Virus record (IMG/VR): IMGVR_UViG_3300044911_002386
Location: 32,001 to 96,000 of that record
Strand: one strand, 5' to 3'
Source of the DNA: a virus
DNA length: 64,000 nucleotides
Below, in pieces: positions 1-60,980 of this stretch; position 1 is the stretch's first letter; each line of letters starts with the position of its first letter. The translations under genes and the position numbers were made by a program. The notes under the pieces are model-generated. The model made no database searches and was not told where the DNA came from. It saw nothing but the letters and a program-made list of their open reading frames with translations.

Positions 1-271
1 GCTGGCCTTCCTTGGTCTTTCGAGCCGCGGCGTTAATCGCTGCTACGATGGTCGCACCGGGCAGTACGGGACCCAACTCCTCGTGCATATGCAGGCTGCC
101 GAGGAACTCAATATGCCCCATCTCGATGTGGTCGGCGTCGGTCTTGACGCGCTTCGAACTGACGCTCTTGAGCGCCTTAGAGAACTTGTTCAGCGGGTTT
201 GCCATCTGAACGTTTTTCACAACCATCGGGCCGTCCCCGGTGATCTTGTAATCAACATTAACCCAACTCAT
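1..271 (-). CDS. RAMP/Cas7-like RNA-binding protein (putative effector of the GGY-NN array); 5' part only, runs off the window edge
   Basis: Not in the ORF track. ATG at 271-269 overlaps the HNH stop (ATGA) and has an AAGGA RBS. Open for 90 codons to the edge: MSWVNVDYKITGDGPMVVKNVQMANPLNKFSKALKSVSSKRVKTDADHIEMGHIEFLGSLHMHEELGPVLPGATIVAAINAAARKTKEGQ. The 'KITGDGPM' strand and 'PVLPGATIVAAI' resemble the RAMP beta1 and P-x-IPGSS-LKG motifs of Csm3/Cmr4/Cas7-group proteins. Confidence 0.7.
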   Translation of the reverse strand, partial: MSWVNVDYKITGDGPMVVKNVQMANPLNKFSKALKSVSSKRVKTDADHIEMGHIEFLGSLHMHEELGPVLPGATIVAAINAAARKTKEGQ

Positions 272-585
272 TGATCTATGTCCTTCCGTTGATGAATCGT
301 GGGAACAATGTAATTACAGCCCAAGTCTTTGTTTTTGTAGCGACGAGCTCGTATTACATTTGTTATTGCTTCGTGACACTCGCTGCATAGCGTAATTAAA
401 TCTTTTTCGACATCCTCTTCGCCAAACCGTTCATACGTCTTGTGATGCACTTCGAGCTGATATACAGATCCGTCGTGCAAACACGTTTGGCATTCATAGT
501 TGTCAATCACTAGACGTTGCGTGCGCTTTTCACACCAGTCATATCTGGCCATGCGCACGGCATAATTTAACGTCGTTGAATCCAT
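268..585 (-). CDS. HNH endonuclease (Zn-binding)
   Basis: CQTC...LEVHHKTY...DLITLCSECH, the typical CxxC/HH/LCxxCH HNH pattern. Confidence 0.85.
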   Translation of the reverse strand: MDSTTLNYAVRMARYDWCEKRTQRLVIDNYECQTCLHDGSVYQLEVHHKTYERFGEEDVEKDLITLCSECHEAITNVIRARRYKNKDLGCNYIVPTIHQRKDIDQ

Positions 586-596
586 TTGTTACCCCT

Positions 597-629
597 GGTT
601 TATGTGTAGTTTCCGCAGCACATAAAACC
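597..629 (-). other. stem-loop between the array and the HNH gene
   Basis: GGTTTATGTG (597-606) pairs with CACATAAAACC (619-629) with one bulge. Confidence 0.5.
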
Positions 630-643
630 GCAACCTACCCTAA

Positions 644-1457
644 TTGTTTTGAAAGAAAAAACCAAACCCAACGTCACCCTGCGTTACCTTACCGGACGTT
701 ACCCGACCTTACCGGACCATATTTTGTTTGAAAGAAAAAACCAGACCTGACCAAACCCCAGCTTATGCCACCCCACCGAGCCAAACCCTATTTTGTTTGA
801 AAGAGAAAACCAGACCTTACCGTGCCTGACGTTACGCTACCGAACCAGACCGCACCCTAAATTGTTTTGAAAGAAAAAACCGAACCAAACCCAATAGCGC
901 CATGCGTTACCGAACGAAATCAAACGTTGCCAAAACAGACACTACCGAACCGTACCGGACCTAACGCAAATTATTTGAAAAAACCATACCGAAAGCTACC
1001 GGACAAAACGCAACGATACCGGACCTGACCGCAAAATTTTGAGAAGAGAAAACCAAACAAAACCGAGCCTAACGATACCCTGCCGTACGCTTGTTGAGAA
1101 AAAAACCATACCTGACCTGATCCCGCCATACCGTACCATGCCGTACCGGACAAGACCCTACACGACGTTACAACACCTTATATGTTTGAAAGAAAAAACC
1201 AGATCTGACCAAACCCCAACTTACCCTGCCCCACGCTACAGTTTTGAAAAAGAAAAACCCTGCCACACCGTACCAAACCTAACCCGACGGCATTCGACCG
1301 AAGCTAACCACAAAGTTTTGAAAGAAAAAACCATACCCGATCGAACGTTACAACACCTCACGTCACCAGACCCGACCTAACGATAAAGTTTTGAAAGAAA
1401 AAACCTAACCTTACGCCGCCATACCGAGCCGGACCTGACCTTACGCCAGCCGACCAT
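644..1457 (-). repeat. 11-unit array of 5-nt-phased (GGY-NN)n tracts separated by conserved U-rich linkers; putative guide-RNA array
   Basis: Plus-strand linker ~TTTGAAAGAAAAA. RCC-NN pentamer tracts at 661-720, 740-789, 809-858, 879-968, 983-1032, 1052-1091, 1105-1179, 1198-1237, 1257-1311, 1330-1384 and 1403-1457 (12,10,10,18,10,8,15,8,11,11,11 pentamers). By hand count, 83/124 triplets are exactly ACC or GCC and all 124 start with a purine. Confidence 0.95.
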
Positions 1458-1464
1458 AAGTATG

Positions 1465-1935
1465 TTATTTAGCGCTGTCGCCAAGAATGACGTTGCGACA
1501 GCCGCACGATGTTGCGAGAGGAAGCACATCATCTGCATAGCCCGCGACTAGTTTCTCTTTGTCGAGATAACCAGTGCTGATAAGTGCCTGCAAGCCTAAT
1601 CGAGCAAAGCCCCGCCGCCGGAACGCCGGGTCGACAAAGCATTCCACCGTCTGCACAGCGACAAACGTGTCTTTTACATGCTCGCGCCATGGGCGTGTGC
1701 CCACCCAGCCGACTAAAACACCTTTAAGCCACACGAAGGCTATTGCCATGTTGGGGTGCGGGCCTGGCTGCGGGTTGAGGTAACGCTTATCCAGTTCTTT
1801 TTGAATAGAGCTCGCACTGCCTGAGTCTGGCCACGAAAGCCGCGAACAAATAGCAGCGACATCAACCGGCCGCAATTGATTGATGTCTTTGATGTAAATG
1901 TTAATCTCGTCCATATAGGCCTCCATACCTGGCAC
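1465..1935 (-). CDS. GNAT-family acetyltransferase
   Basis: Acetyl-CoA binding motif A, FVDPAFRRRGFARLGL; true start may be a few codons downstream. Confidence 0.75.
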   Translation of the reverse strand: MPGMEAYMDEINIYIKDINQLRPVDVAAICSRLSWPDSGSASSIQKELDKRYLNPQPGPHPNMAIAFVWLKGVLVGWVGTRPWREHVKDTFVAVQTVECFVDPAFRRRGFARLGLQALISTGYLDKEKLVAGYADDVLPLATSCGCRNVILGDSAK

Positions 1936-1949
1936 ACGAGTTTAACTAT

Positions 1950-2022
1950 AGCCGGCGGCGGGAGTCGAACCCGCAACCTACTGATTACAAATCAGTTGCG
2001 CTGCCAATTGTGCCACGCCGGC
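1950..2022 (-). tRNA. tRNA-Thr(UGU)
   Basis: Reverse complement GCCGGCGTGGCACAATTGGCAGCGCAACTGATTTGTAATCAGTAGGTTGCGGGTTCGACTCCCGCCGCCGGCT folds as a cloverleaf; anticodon TGT, T-loop GTTCGAC; CCA not encoded. Confidence 0.95.
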
Positions 2023-2034
2023 GATCCGCACAGT

Positions 2035-2400
2035 TTACCCAAAATCGATGGCGCTAATAGCCGCAAATTGTCGCATGGTCATGAATTTAACGCGTTCGCG
2101 GTAAAAAGCCGCGTCGTGATGAGCACTGATTGATTCGCCCTCGTTATCATTGCCAAGAACTAAACCGTAACCCGCCAGCGGTTGCGGGTAGTCGGGCAGT
2201 GCAAAAAACTTAGTGCTGGGCTCGAGTTTGAGTAAGCCTTCGTCGTCAACAAAGACGTCATCGTCATCAGCCAGACGCACCAACGCAAAACAATCGACCT
2301 TGATGTGCTCATAGATTTGCTTGTAGTCGCCGTTATACGTGACGTCTGTGACTTCTTCTTTGTACGGGTCAATCAGGACAGCCTTGTGTTCAGCAGTCAT
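2035..2400 (-). CDS. DUF3846-like phage protein
   Basis: KAVLIDP...VFVDDEGLLK...QPLAGYGLVLG pattern; start at MTAEH overlaps the upstream stop. Confidence 0.65.
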   Translation of the reverse strand: MTAEHKAVLIDPYKEEVTDVTYNGDYKQIYEHIKVDCFALVRLADDDDVFVDDEGLLKLEPSTKFFALPDYPQPLAGYGLVLGNDNEGESISAHHDAAFYRERVKFMTMRQFAAISAIDFG

Positions 2401-2858
2401 ACGGGCTCCAGTTTTGTAGGCCATACGTACGGCAGGTAGATCTCTTCCATCCAGCCAAATTTGGAATAGTGCGCGTAATCTTTACGCAAGAGATTGCCGC
2501 GGTGAGACGCATGAAAGTCATCGTCGCCAAACCACGGCGGGTAATTATTTGCTTTTATTGTCGGTCTAATAATTGAGTACCGATGTTCAAATTCCCGGCA
2601 TAGATTGTCTGTAAACTTGCGGCGGCGCCACTCACGGCACATGACGATGCTATAAACAAGCAGGGCTGTTTCATAGCCTGCCCACATTTGCACCGCCGGG
2701 TGGTTACGCCAGCGAGAGACGCTTGGCATATGGGCACCAATCGGCACGCCTAGGCACAGCAGTATTTGTTTACACTCTACGCGCTGTTTGCCTAGACGCT
2801 TATTGTCCAGCACCGCCGCCGACCGCCGAAAACTCGGCAGGGGCAGAAATGTTTGCAT
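2397..2858 (-). CDS. pyrimidine-dimer DNA glycosylase / MSMEG_6728 family (endonuclease V-like)
   Basis: MQTFLP...LDNKRLGKQRVECKQIL...NHPAVQMW...PPWFGD..FHASHRGNLLRKD signature. Confidence 0.85.
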   Translation of the reverse strand: MQTFLPLPSFRRSAAVLDNKRLGKQRVECKQILLCLGVPIGAHMPSVSRWRNHPAVQMWAGYETALLVYSIVMCREWRRRKFTDNLCREFEHRYSIIRPTIKANNYPPWFGDDDFHASHRGNLLRKDYAHYSKFGWMEEIYLPYVWPTKLEPV

Positions 2859-12198: not shown

Positions 12199-15100
12199 TC
12201 AAACGTTGCGGATAGCAGTCCGTAATGCCGCATTCGTATTAATTGCGACAATTAACTGCGCCAAGAAATCCGCTGTTAACATTGCTCCGCCGGTGGGACC
12301 TGTAGACCCGGTAATACCCTGCTCGCCTGGGGCACCGGGAGGCCCGCATAAACCTGTCGGCCCAGTCACGCCAGTTAAGCCTGTGACGCCTGTTGTGCCT
12401 TTGTCGCCCTTTGGACCCGTCAGCCCTGTTACGCCCGTTACGCCTAATCCTGCAGGCCCTGTGGCTCCTGTAACGCCCGTCAGCCCAGGCACACCCTGCA
12501 GGCCTAATCCTGACGGTCCGGTAGCCCCGGGCGAGCCAGACGGGCCTGTAGACCCTGGCGGGCCAGATGGGCCTGTAGCCCCTGTACGACCAGTTGGGCC
12601 GGTGCTGCCAGTAACACCCTTTTCGCCCCTGTCGCCCTTTGTACCCCTATCGCCTTTGGAGCCGCTTGGGCCTGTACCGCCGCTGGCGCCGCTCGGGCCA
12701 CGCCCGCCGCTTGGGCCTGTGCCGCCGGTGGCGCCGCTTGGGCCGTCTGGCCCCGTAGGTCCAGTTGGACCTGTGACGCCTGTAATACCTGTAACACCCG
12801 TGACTCCTGACGGGCCTTCGGCGCCGGTTGGGCCTGTAACCCCCGTCATCCCCATAAGGCCCGGAGAGCCGTCGAAACCGCGTGGGCCGCCCAGACCAAT
12901 AGGGCCGCTGGGGCCGCTAAGACCTGTAGCGCCCGTTACACCTGTCATGCCGCTCGGGCCGGTCATGCCCGTCATACCGTCTAAGCCGTTATTACCCGGC
13001 TGCCCGGGTGGCCCCTGAAAACCTGTTACGCCGGTTACACCGGTAATACCAGTCGGACCTGTAACGCCGGTAATACCTTTGTCGCCCTGCTCACCTTTTT
13101 CTCCCTTCGGCCCCGTCGGTCCCGTAATCGGCTCCGGACAATCGCCGCCACTAGAACCACCACCGCTACCACCACCGCTACCGCCACCGGTGTCGCTGTC
13201 AGGTTCCGGGCAAGTCGTAGTTTGAAAATTTAAATCTAAGTCAATGAAAGTCATGCCGCTTTCTTCGACAAATTTTATTTCACCAGTACCGATACCCTCT
13301 GGAGTTATTGTGACTTTCCCGCCACGTAATGCCTTTGGTTTAATTTTTAACTTTGGCTTATACGTTAACGAATTGCCGCCGCCACTGCCGCAGCCGCCGC
13401 CATCAGTCGTGGCCTCTAGTTTGATGTACTCGACTGGGTTGTAAACGCCGCCGACAAGCCCCGTCCCGCCGCCGATCTGGTAACCCACATATTCAGTTTC
13501 TTGCGGCTCAAAAACTGGAAGTTCAATATTTAATCTGATGTACGGCGCAATCCAGTATTTGCACTTGTCATACTGGTCACGCACGACGGCGATTGCCGCT
13601 TTATGCTGCCCGCCGGGAGACGCCGAGCCTTTTTTGTGATAGCAAATAACGACGCGCTGGTTCTCTGGCCCGACGCCGGTTTTCTGCCCTGTGAAGTCGT
13701 ACTCAATTGTCGTTTTGCAAAACGGCAGATTAAGTTGCAGACCAATGTTGTAGTTGCAGTAATATCCTGGATTGGTGGCTGACGTTACTGTCAACTGGCC
13801 TGTCGGATTTTGGTCCGGATCAATTTTTCTGATTATGACCGGCCCCGGCGAGATAGTCGGGCACGGCGGCTTCGGAATGCGAATGTCTATCGACAAGTAG
13901 AAATCAAAGTTGCATTCGTCTACTTCGCAGTCTTTGACGATAGGTCGTTTGACAATTCGAAAGTCTAGGTTTGTGTTATTTTCATACGACGCGTTAAGCC
14001 GACTTGAAATAACGTTTAACGTCGGGCACGGTGGTTTTGGCAAGGCAATGGATACACCTAGACCAAATTCAAATACGCAGATCGGCGGTGTTTTGCACGT
14101 GGCGGGAATGTTGCGGGATACGATGTAAAACGCTGAAGCATTACCGTTGCCAAAACTTCTGGCATTCGGTAATGACATAACCGCTGATTGGTTTGCCGCC
14201 GCGCATGTTGAGCCTGCATATGCACCGGCGGCAAAGTTTGACGACACTACAAACGCGGGGCACACCGGCCCGATCAGCGGAATGTATATCTCTAATTCAA
14301 TATCAAAAATACACTGCCCAGGATCATTACAGGTGGGCTCAGTGTGGTTTGGCGTAATCGCGAATTTGTTTTGTTTAGTAATGCAGCCGCCGTAATTTAC
14401 GTAGCCGCTGTCCACGCTAAATTTTTTGACGTTTAACTGCGGGCATCGTGGCACCGGAATAGGTATGTCAATAATAAGTTCGACGTCAAACGTACACTGA
14501 CCCGGCCCATCACACGTGGGCTCAGTGTGTCTTGGTGTAATTGAAAATTTAGTGTTCTCTTTTTTGCAACCCGGTTTATTGAAATACGAATTTACCTTGG
14601 CGGGCAAGACATTAAATTGCGGGCATGGCGGCAGCGGTATCGGAATGTCGATGACCAGCTCGACCTCGAAATCGCAACGGCCCGGGTCGTCGCATGTTGC
14701 CGGACTTTGCCGGACCGGATAAATGCGAAACTTGTTTTCTCTTACCGGGCACTCTGGCCGGTCTATATGCGGATTTACAGTAAACTCTGTAACGGTTATT
14801 TCGGGGCACGGGATGCGTGGAATTGGTACGTTGATGTAGACTTCGACATCAAAGATGCACGCGTTTGGATCTTTACAACTTGAGGCAGTTGCTGGACTAA
14901 ACGTGGCGGCATCTGTCCCGAGCGTAAAGTTTTCAACAACGTTTAACTCGAACAATTTTGATTTGTTCGTCAGTCCGTCAGCGACTAAAAACTGGCGATA
15001 GTTGTTCGTTAGAAAATCTGCTGAACTATTTAAATACTCTACACGTGTTATGACGTTAAACGGATCACCGCCAGTTGCTTTTGTATAATCGACAACGTAT

Positions 15101-59369: not shown

Positions 59370-60980
59370 TTACGCAAGTTCTTCTTGGAGTTTGCGGGCC
59401 GAAAGCATTGTTTGATCCCGCTCGGCTTTGAGTTTATCCATTTCAAGTAATTGTTTCGCGTCAAAATCGGCAAGTTGTCCGGCCTCTAAACGTTTCCGAA
59501 GCATGGCACGTAAGACAGCCGGGGACTGCACGACGTTTGGCGCCGCGTCGGCTACTTCATTAAACGCCAATGCTACTTCTTGAGGGCTATAACCAGAGAT
59601 GACGTCGTCATTAAGCATCAAGTCGTGAAGCGTGGCTTGAGCGCGAATATTTTTAAGCGTCAGTTCGTGGTCGGGCGAGGAGATCTCTTTCAACATCTTT
59701 AAACCAATGTCGCGCGGCTCTTTGTCTAAGCCAAGAATGCTTTTAGCCATCCCGGCTGGCGAGGCAGCACCAGCAAGACCAATTTGTTCACCAACAGTGT
59801 TGACTGGCCGGTTAGCACTCTCAAAAAACGTTTGTAAGTTTTTTTCGTAATTGCTGGCACCACCCTTGCCGCCACCGCCACCACCACGATTACCGCCGCC
59901 ACCGCCGCCACGGTTGCCCTGCGGCTTCTTCTCTTCCGGCTTTTCGGGCTTAGGAGATGGCTTTGCCGGCGGTGCAGGCGGTGCAGGCGGAGCAGGCGGG
60001 TTAATGCCGAATAATGTCGCCGCAAGACTCGGCGGTAATCCTGGCCCGGCAGATACAGGAAAATGCCCGCCACGCGGGCCTGCTGCTTGCTTTAAAGTTA
60101 CGCCGTTAGAGAAGTCTACCGGCGCCTGCAGCACCGAACCTGTAAGAAAAGTGGCTACTTTCTTATTACTAATTACTGGCGTCTTTTTTTTTAAGTCCGC
60201 GCTCGCTTTGACATATTCTTCCGTCAGGATAACAACATTTTGTACGCGGGCGTACAGGGGGTTATCGCCAAAGTGGTTGTTGTTCGTTGCCGCTTGCTTT
60301 TTAAACTGAGGATAAACTTCGGCCACCTTGTGCAGCACCGAAACACCCTCGTCGCCGAAACGTAAGCCAACCTGACGAACAGCGTCGGCGAACGACATGT
60401 TTCCCGGAGTGCGGAAATACTCAACTACGCCGTCAAGCGCCGCGGCGGCTTTAGAGTACGCAGCCGTAGCGATGCGGCGCCGCTCCTCGTCAGCCAACTG
60501 CTCGGCACGTTTGACGCTATAGGCCCGCTCAGCGGCGAATTGCTCGTCACGCGGATACGGCACATATGTCTTTGCCGGTAATGCCACTTGAGCCGCTGCG
60601 GCCTTCTCCTGCTCAGCCACGCGGCGAGCGAGCATGCCGGCAGGCGAAACGGCGTAGTCCGTAGATACAATTTCTTGCCGCACGATTTCTGCCGACGTTT
60701 TAACAGCCTTGGGGTACAGAGCATCTAAAACCGTGGGGGCGTCAGCCAGTTGGAAATCAGCCGACTTTTCAGTCGTGTTTTCGCCTTGTTCGCGTTGCTT
60801 GGTGGTGCGGCCTGTGTTGTACGCATGCACCATAAGGTTAATATGCCCCGCGGGAATATCGGCGGCGGCGGCACTCTTAATGATTGCAGCGTTTGGCGAT
60901 AGCCCTTCGTTGACTAATGCTGCAGCTTTTTCAATCGCAGCAATTAACTTTTGTTCGGCTTCTTTGCTCAATGTCTGCAT
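59370..60980 (-). CDS. head-associated protein with K-x-A motifs
   Basis: EKAAA, IKSAA, EKSAD, VKTSA, SKAAA, HKVAE, KKQAA, KKVAT, LKQAA. Confidence 0.6.
   Translation of the reverse strand: MQTLSKEAEQKLIAAIEKAAALVNEGLSPNAAIIKSAAAADIPAGHINLMVHAYNTGRTTKQREQGENTTEKSADFQLADAPTVLDALYPKAVKTSAEIVRQEIVSTDYAVSPAGMLARRVAEQEKAAAAQVALPAKTYVPYPRDEQFAAERAYSVKRAEQLADEERRRIATAAYSKAAAALDGVVEYFRTPGNMSFADAVRQVGLRFGDEGVSVLHKVAEVYPQFKKQAATNNNHFGDNPLYARVQNVVILTEEYVKASADLKKKTPVISNKKVATFLTGSVLQAPVDFSNGVTLKQAAGPRGGHFPVSAGPGLPPSLAATLFGINPPAPPAPPAPPAKPSPKPEKPEEKKPQGNRGGGGGGNRGGGGGGKGGASNYEKNLQTFFESANRPVNTVGEQIGLAGAASPAGMAKSILGLDKEPRDIGLKMLKEISSPDHELTLKNIRAQATLHDLMLNDDVISGYSPQEVALAFNEVADAAPNVVQSPAVLRAMLRKRLEAGQLADFDAKQLLEMDKLKAERDQTMLSARKLQEELA

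What the first reader, a model, noticed from the sequence alone, without database searches (positions are those of the whole stretch)
644..1457. Array architecture: exact 5-nt phase, invariant Y, free NN, U-rich linker
Each of the 11 tracts parses into 8-18 pentamers (124 total) with no phase slip. On the minus strand the third base of the triplet is a pyrimidine in 124/124 cases and the triplet is exactly GGY in 83/124 (hand count), while the NN positions vary freely. Each tract ends 3' in ~GGUUUUUUCUUUCAAA. Slippage-generated microsatellites homogenise the whole unit. Position-specific conservation with hypervariable dinucleotides instead suggests a scaffold-plus-information code. The linker is a candidate processing site or 3' handle.
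Basis: seen in the sequence. Interest (0 to 1): 0.85.

Follow-up and report, generated by a model that had tools for sequence, protein, structure and literature searches.

The report
Phage VIPR guide array targeting satellites
This repeat is the guide-RNA array of a VIPR system, a recently described CRISPR-like weapon of phages; read with the published code, at least six of its eleven guides point at small parasitic DNA islands in lake planctomycete bacteria, which tells us this large phage's probable host and rivals.

Summary
In detail: 11 in-phase GGY/NN tracts on the minus strand, pyrimidine at position 3 in every pentamer, NN at about 0 bits, each tract closed by a U-rich tail. It is a VIPR guide array (system described in bioRxiv 2026). 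Downstream lie an HNH gene and a 230-aa protein matching the solved SUSP1 Vipr (E=2.6e-26; RAMP fold). With the published 1-nt-skip rule, guides 1, 2, 4, 8, 10 and 11 (probably 5) match replication or regulatory genes of three families of integrase islands in Pirellulales genomes, mostly beside tRNA genes. The skipped base is always the codon wobble. Guide 11 has 12 exact metagenome hits in one gene; guide 2 independently hits the same contigs 20/20 (expected 2e-8). Related phages gain and lose whole guides, and one guide allele follows a serine AGY-to-TCN switch in its target. Differences from characterised VIPR: 11 guides, a short unstructured tail, a relaxed first G, and a conserved HNH gene on a virus. 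RNA ends, silencing versus cutting, and host are inferred. Other first readers flagged this same stretch; a word search of the scan's index found no earlier VIPR report.

The parts
644..1455 (-). VIPR array: 11 vrRNA units, each 7-17 coding GGY/NN pentamers plus an 18-25 nt U-rich tail/spacer; unit period 59-110 nt
1406..1455 (-). guide 1 (10 NN): 18/20 to the Walker-A-like stretch of a DUF5906/primase-helicase-like gene, island family B, sense strand, wobble-aligned
   Evidence: only 2-mismatch hits, supported by guide 8 hitting the same gene family
1333..1382 (-). guide 2 (10 NN): 20/20 to a small gene (YRLDEVKSRI; excisionase-like by position, no profile hit), island family A
1260..1309 (-). 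guide 3 (10 NN): no target found
1201..1240 (-). guide 4 (8 NN): paralogue of guide 10; 14/16 to the AEP primase motif, island family C
1108..1177 (-). guide 5 (14 NN): probable target is a distant homologue of the guide-11 target gene upstream of PolA (19/22 over the first 11 units, 20/28 overall; relative's allele 20/22)
1055..1089 (-). guide 6 (7 NN): NN unchanged in 7 relatives, too short to assign a target
986..1030 (-). guide 7 (9 NN): conserved down to a 79%-identity relative; no target found
882..966 (-). guide 8 (17 NN): 27/34 (relative's allele 29/30) to the family-B primase-helicase-like gene, antisense, wobble-aligned
812..856 (-). guide 9 (9 NN): no target above chance
743..787 (-). 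guide 10 (9 NN): 17/18 to AEP primase motif FSGSKGFHL next to a DnaB-like helicase, island family C
664..718 (-). guide 11 (11 NN): 22/22 in 12 metagenome contigs, all in one gene (PNRKPNKSEW) upstream of PolA in island family A
590..640 (-). degenerate sixth-base-poor 12th tract (five pentamers, no tail) overlapping a possible hairpin just before the HNH ribosome-binding site
   Evidence: read from sequence; fold not significant (z=0.07)
268..585 (-). HNH endonuclease gene (105 aa), stop overlaps the vipr start (ATGA); candidate VIPR accessory protein
   Evidence: Pfam HNH E=2.6e-8; directly 5' of vipr in 47 of 86 loci; H47, H48, C67, C70, H71 invariant in 27 homologues
1..271 (-). 5' part of vipr (230 aa; whole gene G000:31579-32271, runs off the window)
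   Evidence: PDB 36pp SUSP1 Vipr E=2.6e-26; model pLDDT 91 matches Csm3/Cas7 RAMPs, Z 10.3, rmsd 3.8, 146 aligned

Best explanation
A VIPR system of a large (about 200 kb) phage, used against phage-satellite-like islands resident in its planctomycete host. Steps: (1) The array is transcribed with its neighbours on the minus strand and cut or trimmed at the U-rich tails into 11 guides of about 60-110 nt (inferred). (2) Vipr polymerises one subunit per pentamer, buries GGY and displays NN (shown for SUSP1; inferred here from homology and conserved K33, R39, R138, C173, W178, R179 equivalents). (3) The NN string pairs with dsDNA, skipping every third base, on either strand, without a PAM (code shown here computationally by target matches). 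(4) Binding inside primase, helicase, PolA-module and regulatory genes of the islands blocks their expression, so the islands cannot replicate during infection (inferred from SUSP1). Cutting by the HNH protein is the main alternative for step 4. Because the skip sits on the wobble base, synonymous escape is limited mainly to serine AGY/TCN (and Leu, Arg first-base) switches, and guide alleles follow one such switch.
For: Vipr homology and RAMP fold. Array statistics. Guide 11: 12 exact 22-base hits, all one gene, wobble-aligned. Independent hits on the same 58 kb: guide 2 20/20 (expected 2.5e-8), relatives' guides 20/20 (1.5e-7) and 23/24; skips 0, 2 and 3 give only 13-17 and shuffled guides at most 16-18. 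Guide 8 consensus hits 6 of 176 family genomes, reversed control 0; guide 5 consensus has 3 zero-mismatch hits, control 0; guide 10 has 2 hits, control 0. Targets lie in integrase islands at tRNA-Met/Pro/Ser/Leu/Glu/Arg in Pirellulales/Planctomycetota MAGs. Read positions are 93-94% conserved among target alleles versus 76% for skipped positions (partly circular because 12 loci were selected by the pattern). No self-target in the phage genome above chance. The same biology is shown experimentally for SUSP1 (10.64898/2026.10.15.759431).
Against: No expression, processing, binding or silencing data for this locus. Four guides (3, 6, 7, 9) have no target, and guides 1, 4, 5 and 8 match at only 71-90%. 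That the islands depend on or hijack this phage is not shown (no capsid or packaging link tested). The host is inferred only from guide targets. The two Vipr residues that read G1 in SUSP1 are changed (H17 to K19, D177 to E188).
Confidence: 0.85

Rival explanations
1. Same guides and targets, but the outcome is DNA cleavage: the HNH protein is recruited to the Vipr R-loop and cuts the island (compatible with steps 1-3 of the best explanation; differs in step 4).
For: The HNH gene overlaps the vipr start and lies directly 5' of vipr in 47 of 86 loci, down to 33% Vipr identity, and in all 15 members of the supported clade holding this protein; its HH and CxxCH residues are invariant. The discovery paper lists HNH accessory proteins and suggests destruction for nuclease-bearing types.
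Against: Cutting an integrated island would also break the host chromosome (tolerable for a lytic phage, inference). Targets cluster in replication and regulatory genes, as expected for silencing. Vipr alone represses in SUSP1. Nuclease activity is untested.
Confidence: 0.35
2. The main purpose is disabling host-side anti-phage defence carried on the islands (or rival prophages), not stopping parasitism.
For: Family-A islands carry BREX (brxA, brxB, brxC, pglX), and one relative's guide matches pglX at 21/24, above shuffles.
Against: All seven assigned guides of this genome hit the islands' replication or regulatory genes, none a defence gene.
Confidence: 0.15
3. Degenerate microsatellite or replication-origin repeat with no guide function.
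For: Two units share a 14-nt stretch, so local recombination occurs (parse of units 2 and 5).
Against: Position-specific conservation, adjacent Vipr gene, decoded targets far beyond chance, same architecture with different guides in relatives.
Confidence: 0.01
4. A CRISPR mini-array with the U-rich linker as direct repeat and contiguous spacers.
For: Repeat-spacer look; the partner protein has a RAMP fold.
Against: The 'spacers' are 5-nt periodic and vary from 35 to 85 nt; matches appear only with the 1-nt skip, not with skip 3, which mimics contiguous pairing; no Rfam match; no PADLOC hit for the protein.
Confidence: 0.01

Closest known systems
VIPR system, type II prototype of Escherichia phage SUSP1 (bioRxiv 10.64898/2026.04.26.720920, .720927; PDB 36pp)
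   Same: Vipr homologue (32% identity), GGY/NN guides of similar length, 1-nt skip on the wobble base, both strands targeted, no self-targets, satellite-like targets.
   Different: 11 tightly packed guides upstream of the genes instead of 4; 18-25 nt unstructured U-rich tail instead of a 40-nt pseudoknot; HNH gene 5' of vipr instead of a DNA-binding vap1 3' of it; first G relaxed, H17K and D177E; three target island families in Planctomycetota.
VIPR nuclease-bearing types (III and V in the discovery paper)
   Same: A predicted nuclease accessory gene; HNH domains are listed among Vap proteins.
   Different: Those types are described as enriched in host defence islands and antiviral; this one is on a virus record and aims at host-resident islands. 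The type definitions (Fig. 5A, data S4) were not available, so the type could not be assigned.
SUSP1 versus F5 satellites (bioRxiv 10.64898/2026.10.15.759431)
   Same: Phage guides aimed wobble-aligned at conserved genes of integrated satellites.
   Different: Targets here are primase, helicase-like, PolA-module and small regulatory genes rather than the recombinase; no solo vrRNAs were seen in the target loci.
Class 1 CRISPR-Cas (Cas7/Csm3 filaments)
   Same: RAMP fold, one subunit per RNA step.
   Different: Non-contiguous code, single effector gene, no repeat-spacer array.

Membership tests
VIPR | vipr gene: single-RRM RAMP with thumb and G-loop, homologous to Vipr | tested here: met
   phmmer to PDB 36pp SUSP1 Vipr E=2.6e-26 over residues 7-204; fold matches Csm3/Cas7; R138, W178, R179, C173, K33, R39 equivalents kept
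VIPR | adjacent non-coding tracts of about 9-16 pentamers, conserved GGY (or related consensus) alternating with hypervariable NN | tested here: met
   11 tracts, 7-17 coding pentamers, information 0.83/1.32/1.46 versus 0.05/0.00 bits
VIPR | constant 3' tail after each tract | tested here: met
   same U-rich tail after all 11 units and in relatives
VIPR | NN string specifies a DNA target with a 1-nt skip, usually at the wobble position, on either strand | tested here: met
   skips 0, 2 and 3 at background
VIPR | minimal locus: vipr plus an accessory (vap) gene, no CRISPR array | tested here: met
   array-HNH-vipr conserved in all relatives at 61-100% Vipr identity
VIPR | no self-targeting | tested here: met
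   best 1-nt-skip matches in own genome 15/20, 16/22, 13/16, similar to the other skip rules; the record may be incomplete (168 of about 204 kb)
VIPR | discrete vrRNAs expressed and bound by Vipr; target repression | not testable with these tools
   needs small-RNA sequencing, pull-down and reporter assay
VIPR type II (SUSP1 clade) | about 40-nt structured pseudoknot tail and DNA-binding vap1 downstream of vipr | tested here: not met
   tail 18-25 nt, folding 0 to -1.9 kcal/mol, not better than shuffles; accessory gene is an upstream HNH; SUSP1 falls outside this clade on a long branch (quick tree)
VIPR type III (HNH accessory) | type-defining phylogeny, array architecture and vap association | tested here: inconclusive
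   HNH present, but reference sequences and figure for the types were not available
Phage satellite (PICI-like), for the target islands | integrase at a tRNA site, small regulators, own replication module, short length | tested here: met
   families A and B; for family C the contigs end before an integrase or tRNA could be seen
Phage satellite (PICI-like), for the target islands | dependence on and hijacking of a helper phage | not testable with these tools
   needs infection experiments or virome evidence of packaged circles
CRISPR array | constant-length contiguous spacers between direct repeats | tested here: not met
   periodic variable-length tracts; no Rfam match; matches only with 1-nt skip

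The most novel reading that the evidence does not exclude
A virus-encoded VIPR subtype in which Vipr, loaded with short-tailed guides cut from a compact 11-guide array, directs an HNH nuclease to cut satellite DNA: a two-small-protein (230 + 105 aa), PAM-free, gapped-code RNA-guided nuclease, with natural guide-target coevolution visible as serine codon-family escape and counter-adaptation.
Probability: 0.3. Interest if true: 0.85.

Novelty: new variant of a known kind. Interest (0 to 1): 0.62.

Why it matters
The architecture itself is no longer new; VIPR was described in 2026. What this locus adds: (1) an independent check of the 1-nt-skip, wobble-aligned code in a phylum far from E. coli and Pseudomonas; (2) guides used as a host-prediction tool for an uncultured large phage, pointing to Pirellulales and exposing three families of satellite-like islands; (3) a natural case of the escape route that wobble-skipping leaves open (Ser AGY/TCN) being followed by guide alleles; (4) many orthologous arrays from near-identical phages, which make the open question of how new vrRNAs are acquired directly studyable; (5) a widespread viral HNH-vipr pairing that makes 'does VIPR cut DNA?' testable with two small proteins, with possible use as a compact programmable nuclease.

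Tried and rejected
Self-targets in the phage genome and in L002/L003 under skips 0-3: none above chance. Viral-contig scans: guide 7 and guide 1 gave one hit each, neither wobble-aligned and at the chance rate; guides 8 and 3 gave none; guide 9 gave four contigs (three independent) against roughly three expected by my estimate, so rejected. Host-family scans for guide 7 and guide 9 gave nothing convincing; two of the four guide-1 hits look like chance. Sequencing runs: no RNA holder listed, so RNA ends could not be mapped. Vipr-HNH complex prediction: no verdict. Sigma-70 promoter scan: none; terminator-like sites at chance level. Tail hairpin (GUUU/AAAC) is marginal and not better than shuffles. 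Solo vrRNAs in target islands: none seen. vipr in five host genomes: not found with this query. The idea that H17K/D177E explains the relaxed first G: G1 is 0.65-0.74 in this subclade versus a mean of 0.91 in 59 H/D loci, but two K/E relatives have 0.84 and 0.91 and all K/E loci are one clade, so not established. The careful tree did not finish; the quick tree was used only for clade membership. A likeness of the plus-strand linker to CRISPR handles was dismissed because it lies on the strand opposite to the guides and genes.

Full report
Observation. The region is as described. On the minus strand, 11 tracts of pentamers run from 1455 to 659 without phase slip. Position 3 is a pyrimidine in all 125 pentamers of my parse, 83 are GGY, and the two variable positions carry about 0.05 bits or less. 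Shuffling gives at most 30 best-phase GGY against 72 observed in the coding part. Autocorrelation peaks at multiples of 5. No second array exists in the 167,811-base virus record. Each tract ends in GGUUUUUUCUUUCAAA or a close variant; tail plus spacer is 18-25 nt and has no significant fold.

Context. On the same strand the order is tRNA-Thr, GNAT gene, array, HNH gene (268-585), and a gene that starts at 271 and leaves the window. The full 230-aa product matches one solved structure, the SUSP1 Vipr protein (E=2.6e-26). Its model (pLDDT 91) aligns with Csm3/Cas7 RAMPs (Z 10.3, rmsd 3.8, 146 residues). Most residues shown to matter in SUSP1 are kept (K33, R39, R138, C173, W178, R179; K82 to R), but the two that read G1 are changed, H17 to K and D177 to E. 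The published VIPR system has this anatomy: GGY/NN guides, a 3' tail, a 1-nt skip in the target, usually at the wobble base (10.64898/2026.04.26.720920).

Decoding the guides. I converted each guide to an NN-x pattern. The phage's own genome has no match above background. Guide 11 (22 specified bases) gave 12 exact hits in metagenomes; all 12 lie in the same gene, in frame, with the skipped base at codon position 3. These contigs were chosen by guide 11 only, so other guides are an independent test. Guide 2 matches them at up to 20/20 (expected 2.5e-8 perfect hits), and guides of related phages at 20/20 and 23/24, while skips 0, 2 and 3 and shuffled guides stay at background. The element (family A) is integrase - PolA - two unknown genes - small genes, with a BREX cassette in at least two copies. 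It sits beside tRNA genes in MAGs labelled Pirellulales or Planctomycetota, 11 of 13 records; several record names point to lakes.

Searching the 176 genomes of that family: the guide 8 consensus hits six genomes with 0-3 mismatches and the reversed control none. The gene is a DUF5906/primase-helicase-like protein in a second kind of tRNA-linked integrase island (family B), also hit by guide 1 (18/20) and by relatives' guides at 29/30, 15/16 and, in a neighbouring gene, 20/22. Guides 10 and 4 match an AEP primase motif beside a DnaB-like helicase (family C; 17/18 and 14/16). The guide 5 consensus has three zero-mismatch hits in a distant homologue of the guide-11 target; the window's own allele matches 20/28, so this one is probable only. 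Guides 3, 6, 7 and 9 remain unassigned. All accepted targets are wobble-aligned; both strands are used. The UU of the terminal GGUUU matches none of the targets, so it belongs to the tail.

Comparison with related phages. Three other assemblies carry the identical array; phages at 62-98% Vipr identity keep GNAT-array-HNH-vipr (some with inserted genes) but differ in guide number and content (the parser missed some units in the more distant arrays). Whole guides are gained and lost at internal positions; guides 1, 6, 7 and 11 persist, so there is no CRISPR-like leader polarity. Across 75 distinct guides NN is free, but between orthologous guides the first G changes most (18 alleles) and NN changes little (5 and 10). 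Two relatives carry TC instead of AG at one step of guide 11; target genes use AG-type serine in 2 and TC-type serine in 7 of the protein-selected MAG loci. This is a synonymous change that a wobble skip cannot absorb, and the guide alleles match both forms; the direction of change is not shown. One relative's guide matches the island's BREX pglX at 21/24.

The HNH gene. It lies directly 5' of vipr in 47 of 86 loci examined, including viral loci at 33-50% Vipr identity, and in all 15 members of the supported clade that holds this protein. Its HH and CxxCH residues are invariant. It is therefore best read as a true accessory protein, not a passing homing endonuclease. The discovery paper ties nucleases to types enriched in host defence islands; here the nuclease gene is on a virus whose guides aim at host-resident islands. 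I could not assign a type.

Mechanism and status. Shown here by computation: the architecture, the Vipr partner, the code and the targets of six to seven guides. Taken from SUSP1 work: filament assembly, gapped R-loop, silencing, and suppression of satellites. Inferred only: processing at the U-rich tail (only 10 nt separate the GNAT stop from the first pentamer and no sigma-70 promoter was found, so processing from a longer transcript is likelier than separate promoters), the Pirellulales host, the islands being satellites of this phage, and silencing rather than cutting.

Verdict. A real VIPR array, already known as a kind of system. It is a variant in tail, array size, scaffold stringency and HNH partner, with unusually complete natural-target evidence. 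Interest 0.62.

Noticed in passing
window 1950-2022 (-): tRNA-Thr(TGT) just upstream of the GNAT gene on the array strand; its processing could supply a 5' end for the array transcript.
   Followed up: partly
window 1465-1935 (-): GNAT acetyltransferase gene kept immediately 5' of the array in all close relatives, even at 61% Vipr identity; role unknown.
   Followed up: partly
L006:1478-3022: A 514-aa gene with a faint GmrSD_N hit is inserted between the GNAT gene and the array in one relative; the site appears to take insertions.
   Followed up: no
L041:1-15100 and L038:7360-8765: Family-A islands carry a BREX cassette (brxA, brxB, brxC, pglX): defence cargo on a satellite-like island in Pirellulales. 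L041's record is labelled Chitinophagaceae although the island is 75% identical to Pirellulales copies, possibly mis-binned.
   Followed up: partly
L174:1400-1830: A relative at 61% Vipr identity has a different, longer tail with complementary CCC/GGG stretches, so the tail has changed within this clade.
   Followed up: no
L101-L103: Viral VIPR loci with up to 13 tracts downstream of vipr and another short tail, in the same HNH-bearing clade.
   Followed up: no
L023 array, last unit: The guide decodes antisense to a Walker A motif (SPPGxGKS), suggesting an ATPase target; not found in the loci held.
   Followed up: partly
window 2397-2858 (-): Pyrimidine-dimer DNA glycosylase gene (Pfam Pyr_excise, E=4.5e-18).
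   Followed up: no
window 12200-13400 and 59850-60000: 9-nt-period repeats typical of collagen-like (Gly-X-Y) coding sequence.
   Followed up: no
one search hits: Vipr homologues in 130 cultured-phage records, including Gordonia and Mycobacterium phages, all annotated as hypothetical proteins.
   Followed up: no
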